Assembly (NCBI RefSeq): GCF_009914755.1
Contig: NC_060933.1
DNA: 64,000 nucleotides
Strand: one strand, 5' to 3'
DNA from: the human T2T-CHM13v2.0 reference genome, Homo sapiens
The notes under the pieces were generated by a model. The model saw nothing but the letters and a program-made list of their open reading frames with translations. It did no database searches and was not told the DNA's origin. Of the stretch, positions 8,857 through 16,270 are shown in pieces. Position 1 is the first letter of the stretch, and each line of letters begins with the position of its first letter. The position numbers were made by a program, and so were the translations under genes.

Positions 8857-9308
8857 TGAGAGGTGAAGGGAGCAGGACTTCCTGGGTTGAGTGGGGACTT
8901 GGAGAACTTTTCTGTAGCTAGCTAGAAGTTTGTAAAATGCACCAATCAGTGCTCCGTAAAAATGCACCAATCAGTGCTCAGTAGCTAGCTAGAGGTTTGT
9001 AAACTGGACCAATCATCACCCTGTAAAATGGACCAATCAGCACTCTGTAAAATGGACCAATCAGCAGGACATGGGCGTGGAAAATAAGGGAATAAAAGCT
9101 CGGCCACCCCAGCCAGTAGTTGTAATCCAGTCCCCTTCCACCCTCTGGACTGTTTGTTCTTTTGCTCCTCACAATAAATTTTGCTGCTGCTCTCTCTTTG
9201 GGTCAGTGCCACCTTTAAGAGTTGTAACACTCACCATGAAGGTCCACGGCTTCATTCTTGAAGTCAGTGAGATCACGAACCCACCCAAAGGAACCAACTC
9301 CGGATGCA
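8857..9308 (+). mobile_element. Solo LTR12-family (ERV9; LTR12F-like) LTR with ATAT target-site duplication
   Basis: TG...CA termini; ATAT at 8853-8856 and 9309-9312; five CCAATCA repeats; GAATAAAA TATA-like box; AATAAA. Confidence 0.85.
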
Positions 9309-11943: not shown

Positions 11944-12250
11944 GGCCAGGCATAATGGTTCATGCCCGTAATCCCAGCACTTTGGGAGGCTGAGGCGTGC
12001 CGATTATGAGGCCAGGAGATCGAGACCATCCTGGCTAACGCGGTGAAACCCCGTCTCTACTAAAAATACAAAAACATTGGCCGGGTGTGGTGGCAGGCGC
12101 CTGTAGTCCCAGCTACTCAGGAGGCCGAGGCAGGAAAATGGCGTGAACCCAGGAGGCAGAGCTTCCAGTGAGTCGAGACCGTGCCACTGCACTCCAACCT
12201 GGGCGACAGAGCGAGAGTCCGTCTAAAAAAAATTAAATTAAATTAAAATT
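11944..12250 (+). mobile_element. AluY
   Basis: gagatcgagaccatcctggctaac and ggcgtgaaccc diagnostics. Confidence 0.93.
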
Positions 12251-12387
12251 TTTTAAAAATGAAGAAACAACCAGAGAATGGAAGCAAGTATTTGCAAACT
12301 ATGCATCAGACAATGGGTTCATCCACAAAATATATAAAGAATTCAAACTACTCAAAAGAAAAAATACAAACGATCTTATTAAAAAAA

Positions 12388-13330
12388 TCTACCCAAAACC
12401 TTTGTCCCCCACCATCATTTCCCTACACCTTCTTTTCCCGACCACCTTTGACCCCCTCCCTCTGGCCACCCTTTTTCTTCCTCCATCTGCCCCCAAACTT
12501 CTTCACCATTTTTCTCCACCATCATTTCGCAAAGCCTTCTCTACTCTCCTGCTCAACACCCTTTTCCCCATCCACCGACCCAAACCCTTTCCCCACTGTT
12601 TCTTCCCACCGTCTTTTCCTCTTATCCCTGGCCACCCTCTTTTTACCCTTCCCGCATCACACTCTTTTGCTCCTTCATCTAAGCAAAAACATTTTCCCCC
12701 GCCTTTTCCCAAAACCTTCTCCCCACTCCTGCTGCTCACCACCGTCTTTTCCCCCTTCATCCACCCAAAAACTGTGTTCTTCATCGTCTTTCCCCCCGTT
12801 CCTCCTTGCCATTTCTCTTTCCCTTCTCCATCTACCCAAAAACATTTCCCCCATCTTTTCACAAAGCCTTCTCCCCACTGCTGCTCATCTTCCTCTTTCC
12901 CCCCTCCATCCACCCCCCAAAACTTTCCCCACCATCTTTTCAAAGTCTCCCCCCTTTACCACTCGTGCTCTTCTTTCCCCAATCCTGCTTGCCATCCTCT
13001 TTTTTGTCCTGTATCTACCCCAAACTATTTTCCCGTCGTTTTCCCAACCCTCTAATCCCTGCTCCCTCTCCCCACCCTCTTTCCTCCTCCTCGTCACTCT
13101 CTCCCCCCTCCATCTATCGAAACACTTTTTACCCACCGGCTTTCTGCAAAACCTTCCCTCCCTCCCGCTCCCCACCCTGTTTTTCTGCCTCCATGTACCC
13201 AAAAACTTTTTTCCCCACCATCTTTTCGCCGCCATCTTTTTGCAACCCCTTCTCCTGCTATCCTTTTTTTCCCCTTGGCATTAACTACCCTCTTTACCCC
13301 CCTCCAACTATCCCAAAACTGTTTTCCTTC
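12388..13330. repeat. C/T-rich degenerate tandem array, ~11 units of 70-115 bp anchored on CATCTACCCAAAAAC
   Basis: anchor recurs at ~12388, 12484, 12568, 12676, 12758, 12829, 12907, 13012, 13111, 13192, 13308. Confidence 0.75.
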
Positions 13331-13339
13331 TTCTACCTC

Positions 13340-13940
13340 TCCAGCCGCGCCATCTCCATCGCTGCCAACAACCGCAGCGAGGCAAGCCACGCTCCCGCGT
13401 CTCCAGCCTCCAGCATACGGCCAGTGACTCCCGATTCCTAGTCCTCTACGCCGGGATGCGACCACCTCGACACGTCAGTACGGGAACCTGAAAAGACCAG
13501 ATTTCTTTTCAGCATCATTTATATACTGCCGTTATGCCCACGGAGGATCCTGGACTGCATGTTTTGATTGGATGAGAAAAAAACCTCCAGGCTTACTCTG
13601 ATTGGACTTCATGATCATGTTCTGATTGGATGAGAGCAAGTCTTAACAACCAACCACAGCATGAAAATAAAGTCCAATCAAAGTAGGCCTAGAGGTTTTT
13701 CTCTCGTCCAATCAGAACATGTAGTCCAGGAACCGCTTTTGCATAACCTCAGTAGATAAAGCATGCTGAGGTCATGTCAGATCATTTCAAGCTCTTCTGT
13801 GTCGAGCTGAGGAGCTGCTCTGTGCCCGGCTTACAGAACTGGAAGGGGGAGCCACCTTCCGCCTGATGGAGGCTGGAGAACGGATGGAACCTGGATCCCT
13901 GGAGCCTGGGACACTACCTCGCTGCGGTTGGTGGTGGCCA
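13340..13940. promoter_or_regulatory. Palindromic bidirectional promoter-like element, axis 13639/13640
   Basis: ATTGG at 13567, 13601, 13625 mirrored by CCAAT 13708, CCAAT 13674, CCAAC 13650; TATATAAA (- strand, 13525-13518) mirrored by TAGATAAA (+, 13753-13760); CpG-rich flanks. Confidence 0.7.
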
Positions 13941-14149
13941 CAGACCAGTAGGAGGGCGGCTGGCAGCGGGAGCTTCTTCTGCCGGGCTGGAGGACTAGGA
14001 GAAGGGAGAGGGAACGCCACATGCTGGAGGCTGGAGCCTGTGCCACCGTGGCTCACCTCGATGTGGTTGGTGGCAGCTCGCCTTGCTGTGGTTGGTGGTG
14101 ACGTCGGAGACTGCAGCTCGGCCACAGTGGTAGAAATGTGTTGGGGTAG
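13785..14149 (+). ncRNA. Putative first exon of a + strand lncRNA driven by the palindromic promoter
   Basis: starts ~25-30 bp after the TATA-like box; ends at strong donor TAG|GTGAGT (14150); no convincing ORF. Confidence 0.35.
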
Positions 14150-14154
14150 GTGAG

Positions 14155-14800
14155 TGTTCCGGGGCTGCCCTGTACGTCTCTGGGGGCAAGGGTTGGGTGT
14201 CCTATTGGGGCTCACTGCTAGAGGCTACACTGCCTGTGGTAGTGGTCTGGTTGGGGGCACTCTCCGGGGTTGCATTGCTGGTGGTGGGGCAGGTTGACTG
14301 GCTATCTGGGGCTATGCTGCCCGCGGTGGCAGGAGTGGTGGCGGGAGGCAGGTTGTGTACACTAACGTGTACTGCTGGTGGCTGGGGAAGGGTTAGGGGT
14401 GCTATCTTCTGCTGCACTTCCCGCAGCAGGGGGTGGGTTGGGTGGCGTTACCCAGGGCTACAATGCTGGCAGTGGGGGGTGGTTTAGGGGCGTTGTTGGG
14501 TGCTGTACTGCCTGTGACTGGGGGGTGCGCCATCAGGAGCTGAACTGCTGGGGTGGAGTGGGGGGAGGCGGGTTTGGGATGCTATCCAGTGCAGCAACAC
14601 CTGTGGCTGGGTCAGATTGTGGGCACTATCGGATGGTACACTCCCTGCGGTGTGGGGGGAGTGCTTTGGGGGGGAGTATTGGGGTTACATTGCCTGAAAC
14701 TGTAGGGTGTGTTGGATGTGCTATCTGGGGGCTACACTGCTAGTGGCAGGGGGCAGATTAGGGGTGCTACGGGGGCTACACTGCCAGCGGTGCTGGCGAG
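14155..14800. repeat. G/T-rich degenerate repeat with recurring GGGGCTACACTGC motif
   Basis: about 9 variants of ggggctacactgc visible. Confidence 0.6.
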
Positions 14801-15812
14801 CTGAGGAGGTGGCAAAGGCAGCAACAGTAATGGCCTCCTTCTTCCTTCTGGTGGCTTCCAAGTAAGGGATCGTTCTCTTCTTGCCGGACTCCAGACTCTA
14901 GAAGGAGATCTTCTCCTGCTTGAGCTAGATTGCACCGCAGGGCCCCCACACCCACTGTGATTTCCCGTCCCGCCCTCATGCTCTGTGTTGCAGAGACCAC
15001 CTGGGACTACTGGGCAGGGAGTAGTAGGCACCACGGGGGAAGTGGGGGACAGGGCACTGTGGGTGGAGGCGTCAGGAATGGGAACCAGCCCTTGGGTGGG
15101 GAGGGCTGGCTGGGTCTGAGTTTCTCCTACTCAGGCTCCCCGAGGAAGGCAGCCCTGGTGGGCCCAGTAATTCCTGGCCGGGTGGACCTGGCCAGGGGCT
15201 GGTTTCAGTGAAGGCACTCACTCCCACCCCAGGCCCCAGTTCCTGGCCAGCTCTTGCCAGAAGGAGAGGCTGGACTTTGGAAGGTGGGTGTGAGTGCCTT
15301 CAATGAAACTGATCCTTGCCACCCAGTCACCAGTGTGACAAGGTGAGGCTCTAACGGTTCCACTCCCTGAATCCTGTTTTGGGCTTTTCGGGCTTTGCCT
15401 GCCCAGCTGCTCCAAGCCAGGCTGAAGGAGGAGAAGGAGGAGTTGCCTGTGGTACGGTTTAGCCTGCAGATGACGTGGTTCTGCAGCTTGCCTCATGTGG
15501 TTGGTGGTGGTGATGGAGACTGCAGCTCGATCAGAGCGGTAGGAGGACACCCACGGGGGCCAGGTGGTAGGAGCCTGGTAGGGTGGGCTGGTACATTGAG
15601 GGTGACGGTGGTTGTATTGGCATCGGCGCTAGTGGTGGTAGCAGTAGGAAGTCTGGGGGCCAGGAAGGGGGAGTAGGAGCACTGCAGGGCCCATCCCGTT
15701 CTGGGGTGGGGAGGAACCTGTGGGTGCTGTAACGAAGGCCTCGGTGGCAGTGGTGGTGGTACACCTAGGGTCTTACTCTACTTGATTGTAGTTTGTCTGT
15801 GGTTCACATCAC

Positions 15813-16108
15813 TTTTTTTTTTTTTTTTTTGAGACAGTCTCGCTCTGTTGCCTAGGCTAGAGTACAGTGGCACGATCTCGGCTCACTGCAACCTCCGCCT
15901 CCTGGGTTCAAGTGATTCTCCTGCCTCAGCCTCTTGAGTAGCTGGGACTACAGGTGCCCACCACCACACCTGGCTAATTTTTGTATTTTTACTAGAGATG
16001 GGATTTCACCATATTTGCCAGGCTGGTCTCAATCTCCTGACCTTGTTATCCACCCGCCTCAGCCTCCCAAAGTGCTGGGATTACAGGGGTGAGCCTCCAT
16101 GCCCAGCC
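15813..16108 (-). mobile_element. AluS
   Basis: reverse consensus. Confidence 0.93.
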
Positions 16109-16270
16109 TATACCACTTCTAAAGTTTCTTTGCATCATCTTAACTCTTTCCACCCATAATCACAAGTGAATGACAACCAAACACTTAATGACATGTAGAT
16201 ATTTATTATTTAATAGAATCCAAAATAAGTGCATTTTATGAATTAAATAAACAAAACACTGAAAGGTTCA

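What the first reader, a model, noticed from the sequence alone, without database searches (positions are those of the whole stretch)
13340..13940. Mirror-symmetric bidirectional promoter built by an inverted duplication
Seen: a ~600-bp imperfect palindrome about 13639/13640. CCAAT boxes pair exactly (13567/13712, 13601/13678, 13625/13654). TATATAAA on the - strand (13525-13518) mirrors TAGATAAA on the + strand (13753-13760). Symmetry extends into both putative 5' exons (gtgtcgag, cccggc.ta.ag.act, tggaggctggaga and cctcgctgcggttg on both arms). Established: multiple CCAAT boxes ~33 bp apart are NF-Y promoter architecture, and NF-Y sites are enriched at bidirectional promoters. Inference: a whole promoter plus exon was fold-back duplicated, giving two divergent lncRNAs with homologous 5' ends that travel with the SPATA31 duplicon. 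The + transcript heads antisense toward SPATA31C2.
Basis: partly seen in the sequence, partly recalled or inferred. Interest (0 to 1): 0.8.

Follow-up and report, generated by a model that had tools for sequence, protein, structure and literature searches.

The report
Old palindromic BAGE/REP522-type promoter repeat
The mirror-image promoter is real, but it is one diverged copy of an old repeat found at 50 or more places in the genome (the BAGE cancer-testis loci, almost certainly the catalogued repeat REP522), so it was not built within the SPATA31 duplication.

Summary
The ~600-bp imperfect palindrome centred at 13639/13640 is real (arm-to-arm score 140 against 22±2.5 for shuffles). It was not made locally. 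The window's genome holds at least 51 related places on 13 chromosomes, and all 40 places scored match on both strands. In a tree of 27 left and 27 right arms, one branch (100/98) separates left from right, so there was a single ancient fold-back.

The ancestral core had 3+3 CCAAT boxes and two TATA boxes. This copy has lost one CCAAT (CCAAC at 13650) and one TATA (TAGATAAA). The core is more conserved than its flanks (0.926 against 0.778).

Published BAGE primers match two family members exactly. Papers describe a large REP522 stretch at the BAGE locus, and describe REP522 as "~1.8 kb, largely palindromic" and enriched among cancer-activated promoters.

The window holds a ~3.5-3.8 kb fragment of this unit (11956/12258-15770). 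Of 8 close SPATA31 copies, only C1 and C2 have the element nearby.

Verdict: a member of a known repeat family. The NF-Y/TATA mirror layout is a modest added detail.

The parts
11956..12257 (.). Alu at the left edge of the transposed fragment, shared with the chr17-type copies
   Evidence: Window 11956-13144 aligns as one piece to the chr17 copy at 88.8%. The chr2 copy starts only at 12258. Sequence read.
12258..12384 (.). Short LINE-1-like fragment. This is the left limit of homology for most family members.
   Evidence: Alignments of L015-L023, L026, L029, L024 and L030 all begin at L001 position 419, which is window 12258. The chr17 and chr2 copies continue the same sequence further left. 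The 'L1' label is my recall from reading.
12385..13336 (+). C/T-rich, loosely ~150-bp periodic repeat block on the left of the palindrome. It is not the mirror image of the right flank.
   Evidence: Read. Internal repeats appear (823-927 against 976-1076 of L001). Comparing the family consensus outer flanks as a palindrome scores 14, against 14.6+-1.5 for shuffles.
13340..13639 (-). Left arm of the palindrome: three CCAAT boxes, a TATA box and the start of the exon
   Evidence: CpG observed/expected is 1.13 over 13340-13544.
13337..13549 (-). First exon of the predicted lncRNA LOC124902202, with a GT donor just beyond 13337
   Evidence: Hub annotation. The donor was read.
13518..13525 (-). TATA box (TATATAAA on the - strand), intact here
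   Evidence: The exact 8-mer is kept in 18 of 40 aligned copies.
13567..13629 (-). Three CCAAT boxes read on the - strand (ATTGG at 13567, 13601 and 13625), each preceded by CTG or TTG to give (C/T)TGATTGG
   Evidence: They are intact in 34, 33 and 32 of 40 copies.
13650..13654 (+). Degenerate inner right box: CCAAC here, CCAAT in the family consensus
   Evidence: CCAAT is intact in 29 of 40 copies.
13674..13712 (+). Two intact CCAAT boxes on the + strand (13674 and 13708)
   Evidence: They are intact in 38 and 37 of 40 copies.
13753..13760 (+). Decayed TATA box: TAGATAAA here, TATATAAA in the family consensus
   Evidence: The consensus 8-mer is kept in 22 of 40 copies.
13640..13940 (+). Right arm of the palindrome
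   Evidence: CpG observed/expected is 0.37 over 13735-13940.
13731..14149 (+). First exon of the predicted lncRNA LOC124902203. It holds an internal tandem duplication of the exon motif.
   Evidence: Hub annotation.. TRF finds 14051-14098 with period 25.
14200..14800 (+). G-rich degenerate repeats to the right of exon 1, colinear with the BAGE-type locus
   Evidence: Window 13948-14784 aligns in pieces to the chr18 BAGE-type locus.
15370..15470 (+). Stretch homologous to the BAGE-type peptide-coding region. There is no ATG here, and the sequence is diverged.
   Evidence: The translations share AQLLQARL between the window and the chr18 locus. Window 14933-15770 aligns to the chr18 locus at 71%. 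Recognising the chr18 frame as the BAGE peptide is my recall.
15770..15770 (.). Right breakpoint of the transposed fragment, about 40 bp before an Alu (15812-16109)
   Evidence: Both the chr17 and the chr2 alignments end at 15770. The sequences diverge there while chr17 and chr2 continue together.

Best explanation
Window 13340-13940 is the centre of a diverged, truncated copy (about 11956/12258 to 15770) of an old dispersed repeat unit. The BAGE cancer-testis loci belong to this family, and it is very probably what RepeatMasker calls REP522.

The unit's founding feature is a single ancient fold-back. That event put two copies of a CCAAT/TATA promoter and its first exon head to head. The ancestral core was about 190 bp long and free of CpG. 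It carried three CCAAT boxes on each arm in NF-Y-type context (CCAATCAG / CTGATTGG). A TATA box lay about 40 bp outside the outermost box on each side.

Inferred mechanism: NF-Y holds the core open. TFIID at the two TATA boxes starts divergent transcripts near 13490 (-) and 13785-13800 (+). Methylation of the CpG-rich flanks keeps the unit silent in somatic tissue and lets it fire in germ line, early embryo and cancer, as reported for BAGE loci and REP522.

A ~3.5-3.8 kb piece of the unit was dropped, with breakpoints at or near Alus, into the segment later duplicated as the SPATA31C1/C2 pair. There its first exons splice to local sequence to give LOC124902202 and LOC124902203.

In this copy the + side has decayed: one CCAAT and the TATA box are lost, and CpG observed/expected is 0.37. 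The - side is better kept: TATA is intact and CpG observed/expected is 1.13.
For: Shown here:
- The palindrome is real and far above chance.
- All 40 of 40 places scored match the query on both strands. together give 51 distinct places (my hand count), a lower bound because only 40 of 67 and 40 of 87 candidates were scored.
- A majority consensus of 30 loci has arms of ~300 nt at 80% identity, scoring 149 against 15.2+-1.3 for shuffles.
- In the arm tree, 27 left and 27 right arms are split by one branch with 100/98 support, and the two halves have congruent subfamilies.
- CCAAT pentamers are intact in 203 of 240 box-by-copy cells. All six are intact in 20 of 38 loci.
- Over 31 non-redundant copies, mean identity to consensus is 0.926 in the core against 0.778 in non-CpG outer columns. 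CCAAT columns score 0.970 against 0.917 for the rest of the core.
- The de-converted BAGE COBRA primers BS+32f and BS99f (printed in PMC3757347) match L043 and L044 with 0 mismatches, 67 nt apart as their names imply.
- The window is colinear with the chr18 BAGE-type locus from 13120 to 15770.
- The fragment limits are shared with the chr17 and chr2 copies, which themselves share at least 11.7 kb.

From papers (passages only):
- The BAGE locus holds a large REP522 region (PMC3560060).
- REP522 is enriched more than 2-fold in lncRNA exons (10.1101/189753).
- REP522 is up-regulated at the 8-cell stage (PMC6545021).
- BAGE loci are methylated in normal tissue and hypomethylated in cancers (PMC3757347).

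From annotation: the hub table gives divergent predicted lncRNAs starting at 13549 (-) and 13731 (+).
Against: - Identity with REP522 is indirect. No Repbase/Dfam consensus or RepeatMasker track was available, and the Kaczkowski 2016 paper is not held.
- The palindrome is ~630 bp in this subfamily and ~4.8 kb in the chr22q12 copies. Neither figure is the quoted 1.8 kb.
- NF-Y and TBP binding, the start sites and methylation gating were not tested for this copy.
- The RefSeq 5' ends (13549 and 13731) lie inside the TATA boxes rather than ~30 bp beyond them. This does not fit TATA-directed initiation. They are exact mirror images at the ends of the core arms, which may be a model-building artefact.
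- Higher conservation of the core could partly reflect its lack of CpG and its base composition. Alignment columns are also not phylogenetically independent.
- This copy has lost two of its eight motifs.
- The BAGE primers do not match the window copy within 4 mismatches. It is only ~72% identical to BAGE-type copies.
Confidence: 0.8

Rival explanations
1. One reading: the palindrome was made by a local fold-back inside the SPATA31 duplicon and travels with SPATA31 genes.
For: The two copies that are nearly identical to each other (99.7% over 3601 bp) sit 17-19 kb from the long coding exons of SPATA31C2 and SPATA31C1.
Against: All 40 of 40 other places are themselves palindromic. Left and right arms form two congruent halves of one tree. 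The nearest relatives, 84-87% identical over the 601-base query, are on chr17, 7, 20, 15 and acrocentric short arms. Only 2 of 8 close SPATA31 loci have the element nearby. The element's side of the chr9:94.2 Mb paralogue has no colinear homology to window 1-30000.
Confidence: 0.03
2. This particular copy is an inert relic. The motifs are decaying, and the predicted lncRNAs reflect noise or rare transcription with no role for the palindrome.
For: The inner right CCAAT and the right TATA box are lost, and the right arm has lost its CpGs (observed/expected 0.37). Both lncRNAs are 'predicted' models only. Their 5' ends do not sit where TATA-directed starts would.
Against: Five of six CCAAT boxes and the left TATA box are intact. 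The left arm keeps CpG observed/expected 1.13, which suggests it has stayed unmethylated in the germ line. Both models splice from the arms into unique local exons, which argues for real transcripts from this locus (hub annotation). The copy is 12-14% diverged from its nearest non-SPATA31C relatives, so reads should place on the C1/C2 pair.
Confidence: 0.2
3. The palindrome acts as an RNA hairpin or small-RNA source (as with the annotated miR-5701 in a REP522 copy), or as a cruciform or fragile site, rather than as a promoter.
For: The 190-nt core folds into a near-perfect hairpin: -116.3 kcal/mol against -44.2+-4.5 for shuffles, z = -16. A preprint states that hsa-miR-5701 overlaps a Rep522 repeat (10.1101/2021.12.09.471935).
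Against: The annotated transcripts start outside the core and run away from it, so the core is not in them (hub annotation). The conserved features are CCAAT and TATA motifs in mirror positions. CCAAT columns are more conserved than the rest of the stem. The Rfam hits to the core are non-specific hairpin models far below their thresholds. I could not obtain the miR-5701 sequence from any tool, so I did not test the link.
Confidence: 0.06
4. It is a palindromic DNA transposon or MITE that inserted here on its own.
For: It is a multi-copy, palindromic, dispersed sequence.
Against: Copies share colinear flanks of 3.5 kb to more than 11 kb. The number of places is tens, not thousands. The fragment ends lie at or near Alus, and I did not identify a target-site duplication. 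The palindrome's content is a promoter plus an exon.
Confidence: 0.02

Closest known systems
REP522 (RepeatMasker class Satellite/telo; 'unclassified interspersed repeat')
   Same: It is described as largely palindromic, dispersed, enriched in lncRNA exons and among cancer-activated CAGE promoters, up at the 8-cell stage, and present as a large block at the BAGE locus. The family found here is palindromic, dispersed in pericentromeric, acrocentric and other duplicated regions, includes the BAGE loci and supplies lncRNA first exons.
   Different: There was no direct comparison with the REP522 consensus. The quoted size is 1.8 kb, whereas the palindrome measured here is ~630 bp (window, chr17 and BAGE types) or ~4.8 kb (chr22q12 copies). 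In the searchable library, no paper mentions REP522 together with NF-Y (0 papers) or with CCAAT (0 papers).
BAGE (B melanoma antigen) loci
   Same: Published BAGE primers at +32 and +99 hit the right arm of family members L043 and L044 exactly. The window unit is colinear with the chr18 BAGE-type locus from the C/T-rich block through the palindrome to the peptide-homologous region. Ten loci at >=87% identity to the chr18 copy lie on chr9, 13, 15, 18, 21 and 22. The literature gives 12 loci on chr9, 13, 18 and 21 (PMC3084872).
   Different: The window copy is only ~72% identical to BAGE-type copies and belongs to another subfamily. It has no BAGE-like ORF start. It lies in a 9q22 duplication rather than next to a centromere. 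BAGE-type copies lack the right-hand TATA box because of a 6-bp deletion.
LTR12 (HERV-9 LTR) promoters
   Same: This is a repeat-borne promoter with multiple NF-Y-type CCAAT boxes, active in testis and cancer (my recall). An LTR12-like CCAAT array lies 4.5 kb away at 8914-9066.
   Different: In LTR12 the boxes are in tandem, it acts in one direction, and it is retroviral in origin. Here the boxes are in mirror symmetry and there is no LTR structure.
Generic NF-Y-rich bidirectional promoters of human gene pairs
   Same: Two divergent starts lie less than 1 kb apart with CCAAT boxes between them.
   Different: Typical ones are TATA-less CpG islands with unrelated flanking genes (established knowledge). 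Here the core is CpG-free, has TATA boxes, and the two sides are homologous because of a fold-back.

Membership tests
REP522 | Significant match to the Repbase/Dfam REP522 consensus | not testable with these tools
   No Repbase, Dfam or RepeatMasker track is available. The hub's mask list gives no family names.
REP522 | Largely palindromic unit of about 1.8 kb | tested here: inconclusive
   It is palindromic, but the arms are ~300 nt in the 30-locus consensus and ~2.3-2.4 kb in the chr22q12 copies. The 1.8 kb figure comes from PMC4896275.
REP522 | A REP522 block is present at the BAGE locus | tested here: met
   The literature statement is in PMC3560060. BAGE primers map with 0 mismatches onto family members L043 and L044.
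REP522 | Carries CAGE-defined promoters activated in cancer | not testable with these tools
   Only the abstract passage was seen. No CAGE data are available here.
BAGE loci | Homology to the BAGE promoter, exon 1 and downstream region | tested here: met
   Window 13120-15770 is colinear with the chr18 BAGE-type locus at 67-75% identity. It is ~72% identical over the palindrome.
BAGE loci | Amplifiable with the published BAGE primers, meaning close BAGE-type sequence | tested here: not met
   No match within 4 mismatches in the window. The window copy sits in a different subfamily.
BAGE loci | Short BAGE open reading frame | tested here: not met
   The homologous stretch at ~15370-15470 has no ATG and is diverged.
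BAGE loci | Juxtacentromeric location | tested here: not met
   The window is chr9:100.25-100.32 Mb beside SPATA31C2 (hub annotation), not next to a centromere.
NF-Y-type bidirectional promoter | Two divergent start sites within 1 kb | tested here: met
   Predicted RefSeq models start at 13549 (-) and 13731 (+) (hub annotation). These are prediction-level evidence only.
NF-Y-type bidirectional promoter | CCAAT boxes in NF-Y sequence context | tested here: met
   There are five intact boxes, four of them as CTGATTGG/CCAATCAG or one base from it. There are six in the family consensus. The NF-Y consensus itself is recalled.
NF-Y-type bidirectional promoter | NF-Y occupancy and CCAAT-dependent activity | not testable with these tools
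   No ChIP or reporter data are available.
MITE / DNA transposon | Discrete element bounded by terminal inverted repeats and a target-site duplication | tested here: not met
   Copies share 3.5 kb to more than 11 kb of colinear flanks. I did not identify a target-site duplication at 11956/12258 or 15770.

The most novel reading that the evidence does not exclude
The REP522/BAGE core is not just a repeat that happens to be transcribed. It is a selectively maintained, methylation-gated, NF-Y-dependent bidirectional promoter cassette. It has kept six CCAAT boxes in mirror symmetry in about half of the copies examined (20 of 38), with no arm-to-arm gene conversion, and it seeds new germline, embryo and cancer lncRNA or peptide genes wherever segmental duplication drops it. 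At this locus the cassette would drive antisense transcription across SPATA31C2 (and C1), coupling a testis gene to the cassette's epigenetic switch.
Probability: 0.2. Interest if true: 0.5.

Novelty: already known. Interest (0 to 1): 0.3.

Why it matters
The result shows that a striking "designed-looking" promoter is a copy of a known repeat family, so it should not be counted as a SPATA31-specific invention.

There is some residual value:
- It gives an explicit motif-level anatomy for the BAGE/REP522 promoter: 3+3 CCAAT boxes, two TATA boxes and a CpG-free core between CpG-rich arms.
- The core is conserved across dozens of paralogues.
- The fold-back was a single ancient event with no later arm-to-arm conversion.
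- Some copies (chr22q12) keep a ~4.8 kb palindrome.

If the NF-Y dependence were confirmed, it would explain why REP522 promoters fire together in early embryo and in cancer.

Tried and rejected
One request failed on the server and was repeated once.
- A Pfam scan of 80 of the 145 ORFs of at least 75 aa in the 40 kb around the chr17 and chr2 copies found no gene to which the promoter belongs. There were only three sub-threshold hits: EF-Tu domain 2, Med15_C and Raf1_HTH.
- A full-text search for four 22-25-nt strings of the core found 0 papers.
- A search for SPATA31 plus 'bidirectional promoter' gave 1 irrelevant paper. The four-term search gave nothing relevant.
- An Rfam scan of four loci gave only below-threshold hits of the hairpin-like core to unrelated miRNA models, plus Alu/SRP hits. 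There is no miR-5701 family in the library.
- I tried to test the miR-5701/REP522 link by finding the miRNA sequence in print. The link is untested.
- Kaczkowski et al. 2016 is not held. It and Horie et al. 2017 may already describe bidirectional REP522 promoters or their motifs.
- I looked for an 'empty site' at the SPATA31 paralogue at chr9:94.2 Mb, but the homology does not reach that far, so no empty site could be shown.
- I tested whether the window-type flanks are a larger, decayed palindrome. They are not.
- The MITE and local fold-back readings were rejected, as set out under rival explanations.
- The listing for BAGE plus CCAAT (13 papers, titles and abstract starts only) showed nothing on BAGE promoter anatomy.

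Full report
**1. The observation**

The sequence at 13340-13940 is an imperfect palindrome about 13639/13640. The repeat finder reports core arms 13545-13632 and 13647-13734 (88 nt, 83% complementary, 14 nt apart), plus further arm pieces out to 13365 and 13934. I aligned the reverse complement of the left 700 bp to the right 700 bp. The alignment has 231 aligned columns at 74% identity and scores 140, against 22.5+-2.5 (maximum 33) for 100 shuffles.

The CCAAT boxes at 13567/13708 and 13601/13674 are exact mirror partners. Five boxes in the 190-bp core compares with 0.40 expected, and 5e-05 of 20000 shuffles reach 5. The spacings are 34 and 24 bp.

**2. The palindrome is not private to this locus**

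I searched the window's own genome with the 601 bases. The search gave 91 matches at 40 scored places out of 67 candidates, on chr2, 5, 7, 9, 10, 13, 14, 15, 17, 18, 20, 21 and 22, at 72-87% identity. It also found the SPATA31C1-side twin. Every one of the 40 places matches on both strands, so each is itself palindromic. A second search, using a BAGE-type member as query, added 11 places. The total is 51 by my hand count, and it is a lower bound.

The twin at chr9:100,093,141 is inverted relative to the window copy and 99.7% identical over 3601 bp.

**3. What the window actually holds**

Homology to the chr17 (28.03 Mb) and chr2 (131.64 Mb) copies runs from window 11956 (chr17, including a shared Alu) or 12258 (chr2) to 15770, at 79-89% identity. 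It stops there in both. The chr17 and chr2 copies go on together for at least 11.7 kb.

So the window has a ~3.5-3.8 kb fragment of a larger duplicated unit. The left junction is in or next to an Alu, and the right junction lies ~40 bp before another Alu. From left to right the fragment contains:
- a short LINE-like piece;
- a C/T-rich loosely periodic block;
- the palindrome;
- G-rich repeats;
- a stretch at ~15370-15470 whose translation is recognisably related to that of the chr18 BAGE-type locus.

**4. Family anatomy**

In a MAFFT alignment of 40 copies, the ancestral core reads as three ATTGG boxes on the left and three CCAAT boxes on the right, with a TATA box on each side. The boxes are intact in 34, 33, 32, 29, 38 and 37 of 40 copies, which is 203 of 240 cells. 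All six are intact in 20 of 38 loci where the centre could be anchored. L001 and L002 failed the anchor because of a 2-bp deletion and were measured instead.

I dropped 9 near-duplicate rows (L002, 009, 010, 013, 016, 018, 019, 029, 042). Over the remaining 31 copies:
- Mean identity to consensus is 0.926 in the core (191 columns, none of them CpG).
- It is 0.843 in the TATA zones.
- It is 0.778 in the non-CpG outer columns.
- CCAAT columns score 0.970, against 0.917 for the other core columns (Mann-Whitney p = 0.0013).

These columns are not phylogenetically independent, so the p-values overstate the case. The direction still fits constraint on the promoter core.

**5. One ancient fold-back**

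A majority consensus of 30 loci has arms of ~300 nt at 80% identity. That is more alike than in the window copy, and it scores 149 against 15.2+-1.3 for shuffles. Beyond ~300 nt the window-type flanks are not mirror images (score 14 against 14.6+-1.5).

In a maximum-likelihood tree of 27 left and 27 right arms, one branch (100/98) separates all left arms from all right arms. The two halves show the same subfamilies. For this tree I used one representative per near-duplicate group and left out five loci whose left arms are deleted or truncated (L014, L027, L036, L040, L042). The tree means the inversion happened once before the family spread, and the arms have not homogenised each other since.

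The chr22q12 copies keep a much longer palindrome, with arms of ~2.3-2.4 kb at ~75% identity. Their left arm mirrors sequence that, in the window, exists only on the right (window 14937-15410). The simplest reading is that the ancestor was a long palindrome and the window/BAGE lineage lost the outer left arm. This is an inference. The reverse order of events is not excluded.

**6. Identity**

A paper on BAGE methylation prints nested bisulphite primers named BS+32f and BS99f (PMC3757347, passages). After de-converting them, both match L043 (chr15 short arm) and L044 (chr18:15.03 Mb) with 0 mismatches, on the right arm and 67 nt apart. Ten loci at >=87% identity to the chr18 copy lie on chr9, 13, 15, 18, 21 and 22. 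The literature counts twelve BAGE loci on chr9, 13, 18 and 21 (PMC3084872, passages).

Statements in the papers about REP522:
[quoted passage not shown] - REP522 is enriched in lncRNA exons, up at the 8-cell stage, and filed by RepeatMasker as Satellite/telo.

I could not compare the sequence with the REP522 consensus, so this identification is indirect. I put it at about 85%.

**7. Relation to SPATA31**

The long SPATA31C2 coding exon has 8 close copies (>=92% identity), all on chr9 (14 of 14 candidates scored). Family members lie 17-19 kb from the C2 and C1 exons only. The other chr9 members (43.09, 44.20, 44.38 and 106.72 Mb) are 0.46 Mb or more from any SPATA31 copy. The 20 kb on the corresponding side of the chr9:94.2 Mb paralogue has no colinear homology to window 1-30000. 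The element therefore belongs to the C1/C2-specific duplication and not to the SPATA31 core duplicon.

**8. Mechanism**

What is shown is the motif architecture, its conservation and its single origin.

What is inferred is as follows. NF-Y binds the CCAAT boxes, whose contexts CTGATTGG/CCAATCAG fit the NF-Y consensus as I recall it. TFIID at the flanking TATA boxes directs divergent starts. CpG methylation of the arms gates activity, as published for BAGE and REP522. The BAGE primer numbering puts the BAGE start 82 nt beyond the outer CCAAT, which is equivalent to window ~13790-13800 once the 6-bp gap of BAGE-type copies in the alignment is allowed for.

The RefSeq 5' ends (13549 and 13731) go against a simple TATA model. 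They lie inside the TATA boxes and are exact mirror images at the ends of the core arms, so they may be artefacts of model building.

In this copy the + side is decayed (CCAAC, TAGATAAA, CpG observed/expected 0.37). The - side is better kept (TATA intact, CpG observed/expected 1.13).

**9. Rivals**

The core folds as a strong hairpin (z = -16), and a preprint says miR-5701 overlaps a Rep522 repeat. However, the annotated transcripts do not include the core, and I could not obtain the miRNA sequence to test the link. The transposon reading and the local fold-back reading are contradicted by the shared long flanks and by the tree.

**10. Novelty**

The family is catalogued, its palindromic nature and promoter activity are in print, and BAGE is a textbook cancer-testis gene. 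In the searchable library, no paper pairs REP522 with NF-Y or with CCAAT (0 and 0 papers). The key papers (Kaczkowski 2016, Horie 2017) and all supplements were out of reach, so I cannot say the motif anatomy is unpublished.

Noticed in passing
window 8914-9066 (to about 9300): A tandem array of five CCAAT boxes (units of 24-25 and 67 bp) is followed by a TATA-like AATAAAAG and an AATAAA signal. It looks like an LTR12/HERV-9 LTR fragment (my recall). Exon 2 of LOC124902202 (9235-9297, - strand) lies just beyond it. It is the only other 190-bp stretch of the window with five CCAAT/ATTGG motifs.
   Followed up: partly
L045 / L046 (chr22:32.67 and 32.59 Mb), with L047 and L048: These copies of the family are ~4.8 kb palindromes, with arms of ~2.3-2.4 kb at ~75% identity. 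That is far longer than in the window, chr17 or BAGE types. There are three copies within ~230 kb.
   Followed up: partly
window 13549 and 13731: The 5' ends of the two predicted lncRNAs are exact mirror images about 13640 and coincide with the outer ends of the core arms (13545/13734). This may be an artefact of read alignment or model building at a hairpin-forming palindrome, rather than true start sites.
   Followed up: no
window 13340-13544 against 13735-13940: The two arms differ strongly in CpG content: observed/expected is 1.13 with 18 CpGs on the left, against 0.37 with 6 CpGs on the right. This hints that only the - strand side has stayed unmethylated in the germ line.
   Followed up: partly
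window 14076-14140 and 15478-15545; 13866-13940 and 14026-14100: There are direct repeats of the exon motif (the GGTTGGTGG...GGAGACTGCAGCTCG type) inside the right half of the unit. The motif therefore occurs several times on the + strand and once on the - strand.
   Followed up: no
chr9:100,093,141-100,093,741 (L002) against the window copy: The SPATA31C1-side twin is inverted relative to the window copy and lies 174 kb away. It is 99.7% identical over 3601 bp. The two elements lie on the inner side of the two SPATA31C genes, so the C1/C2 pair is itself a large inverted duplication.
   Followed up: partly
L031:3547-4023 (-) and L033:1812-2228 (-): There are sub-threshold Pfam hits in the flanks of the chr17 and chr2 copies: EF-Tu domain 2 (E = 1.3e-5) and Med15_C (E = 0.004). 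These are probably pseudogene fragments carried in the larger duplicon.
   Followed up: no
L020, L024, L026, L029 and L038: The BAGE forward primers also hit the opposite arm on the opposite strand with 3-4 mismatches. PCR assays on BAGE loci may therefore prime on both arms of some family members.
   Followed up: no
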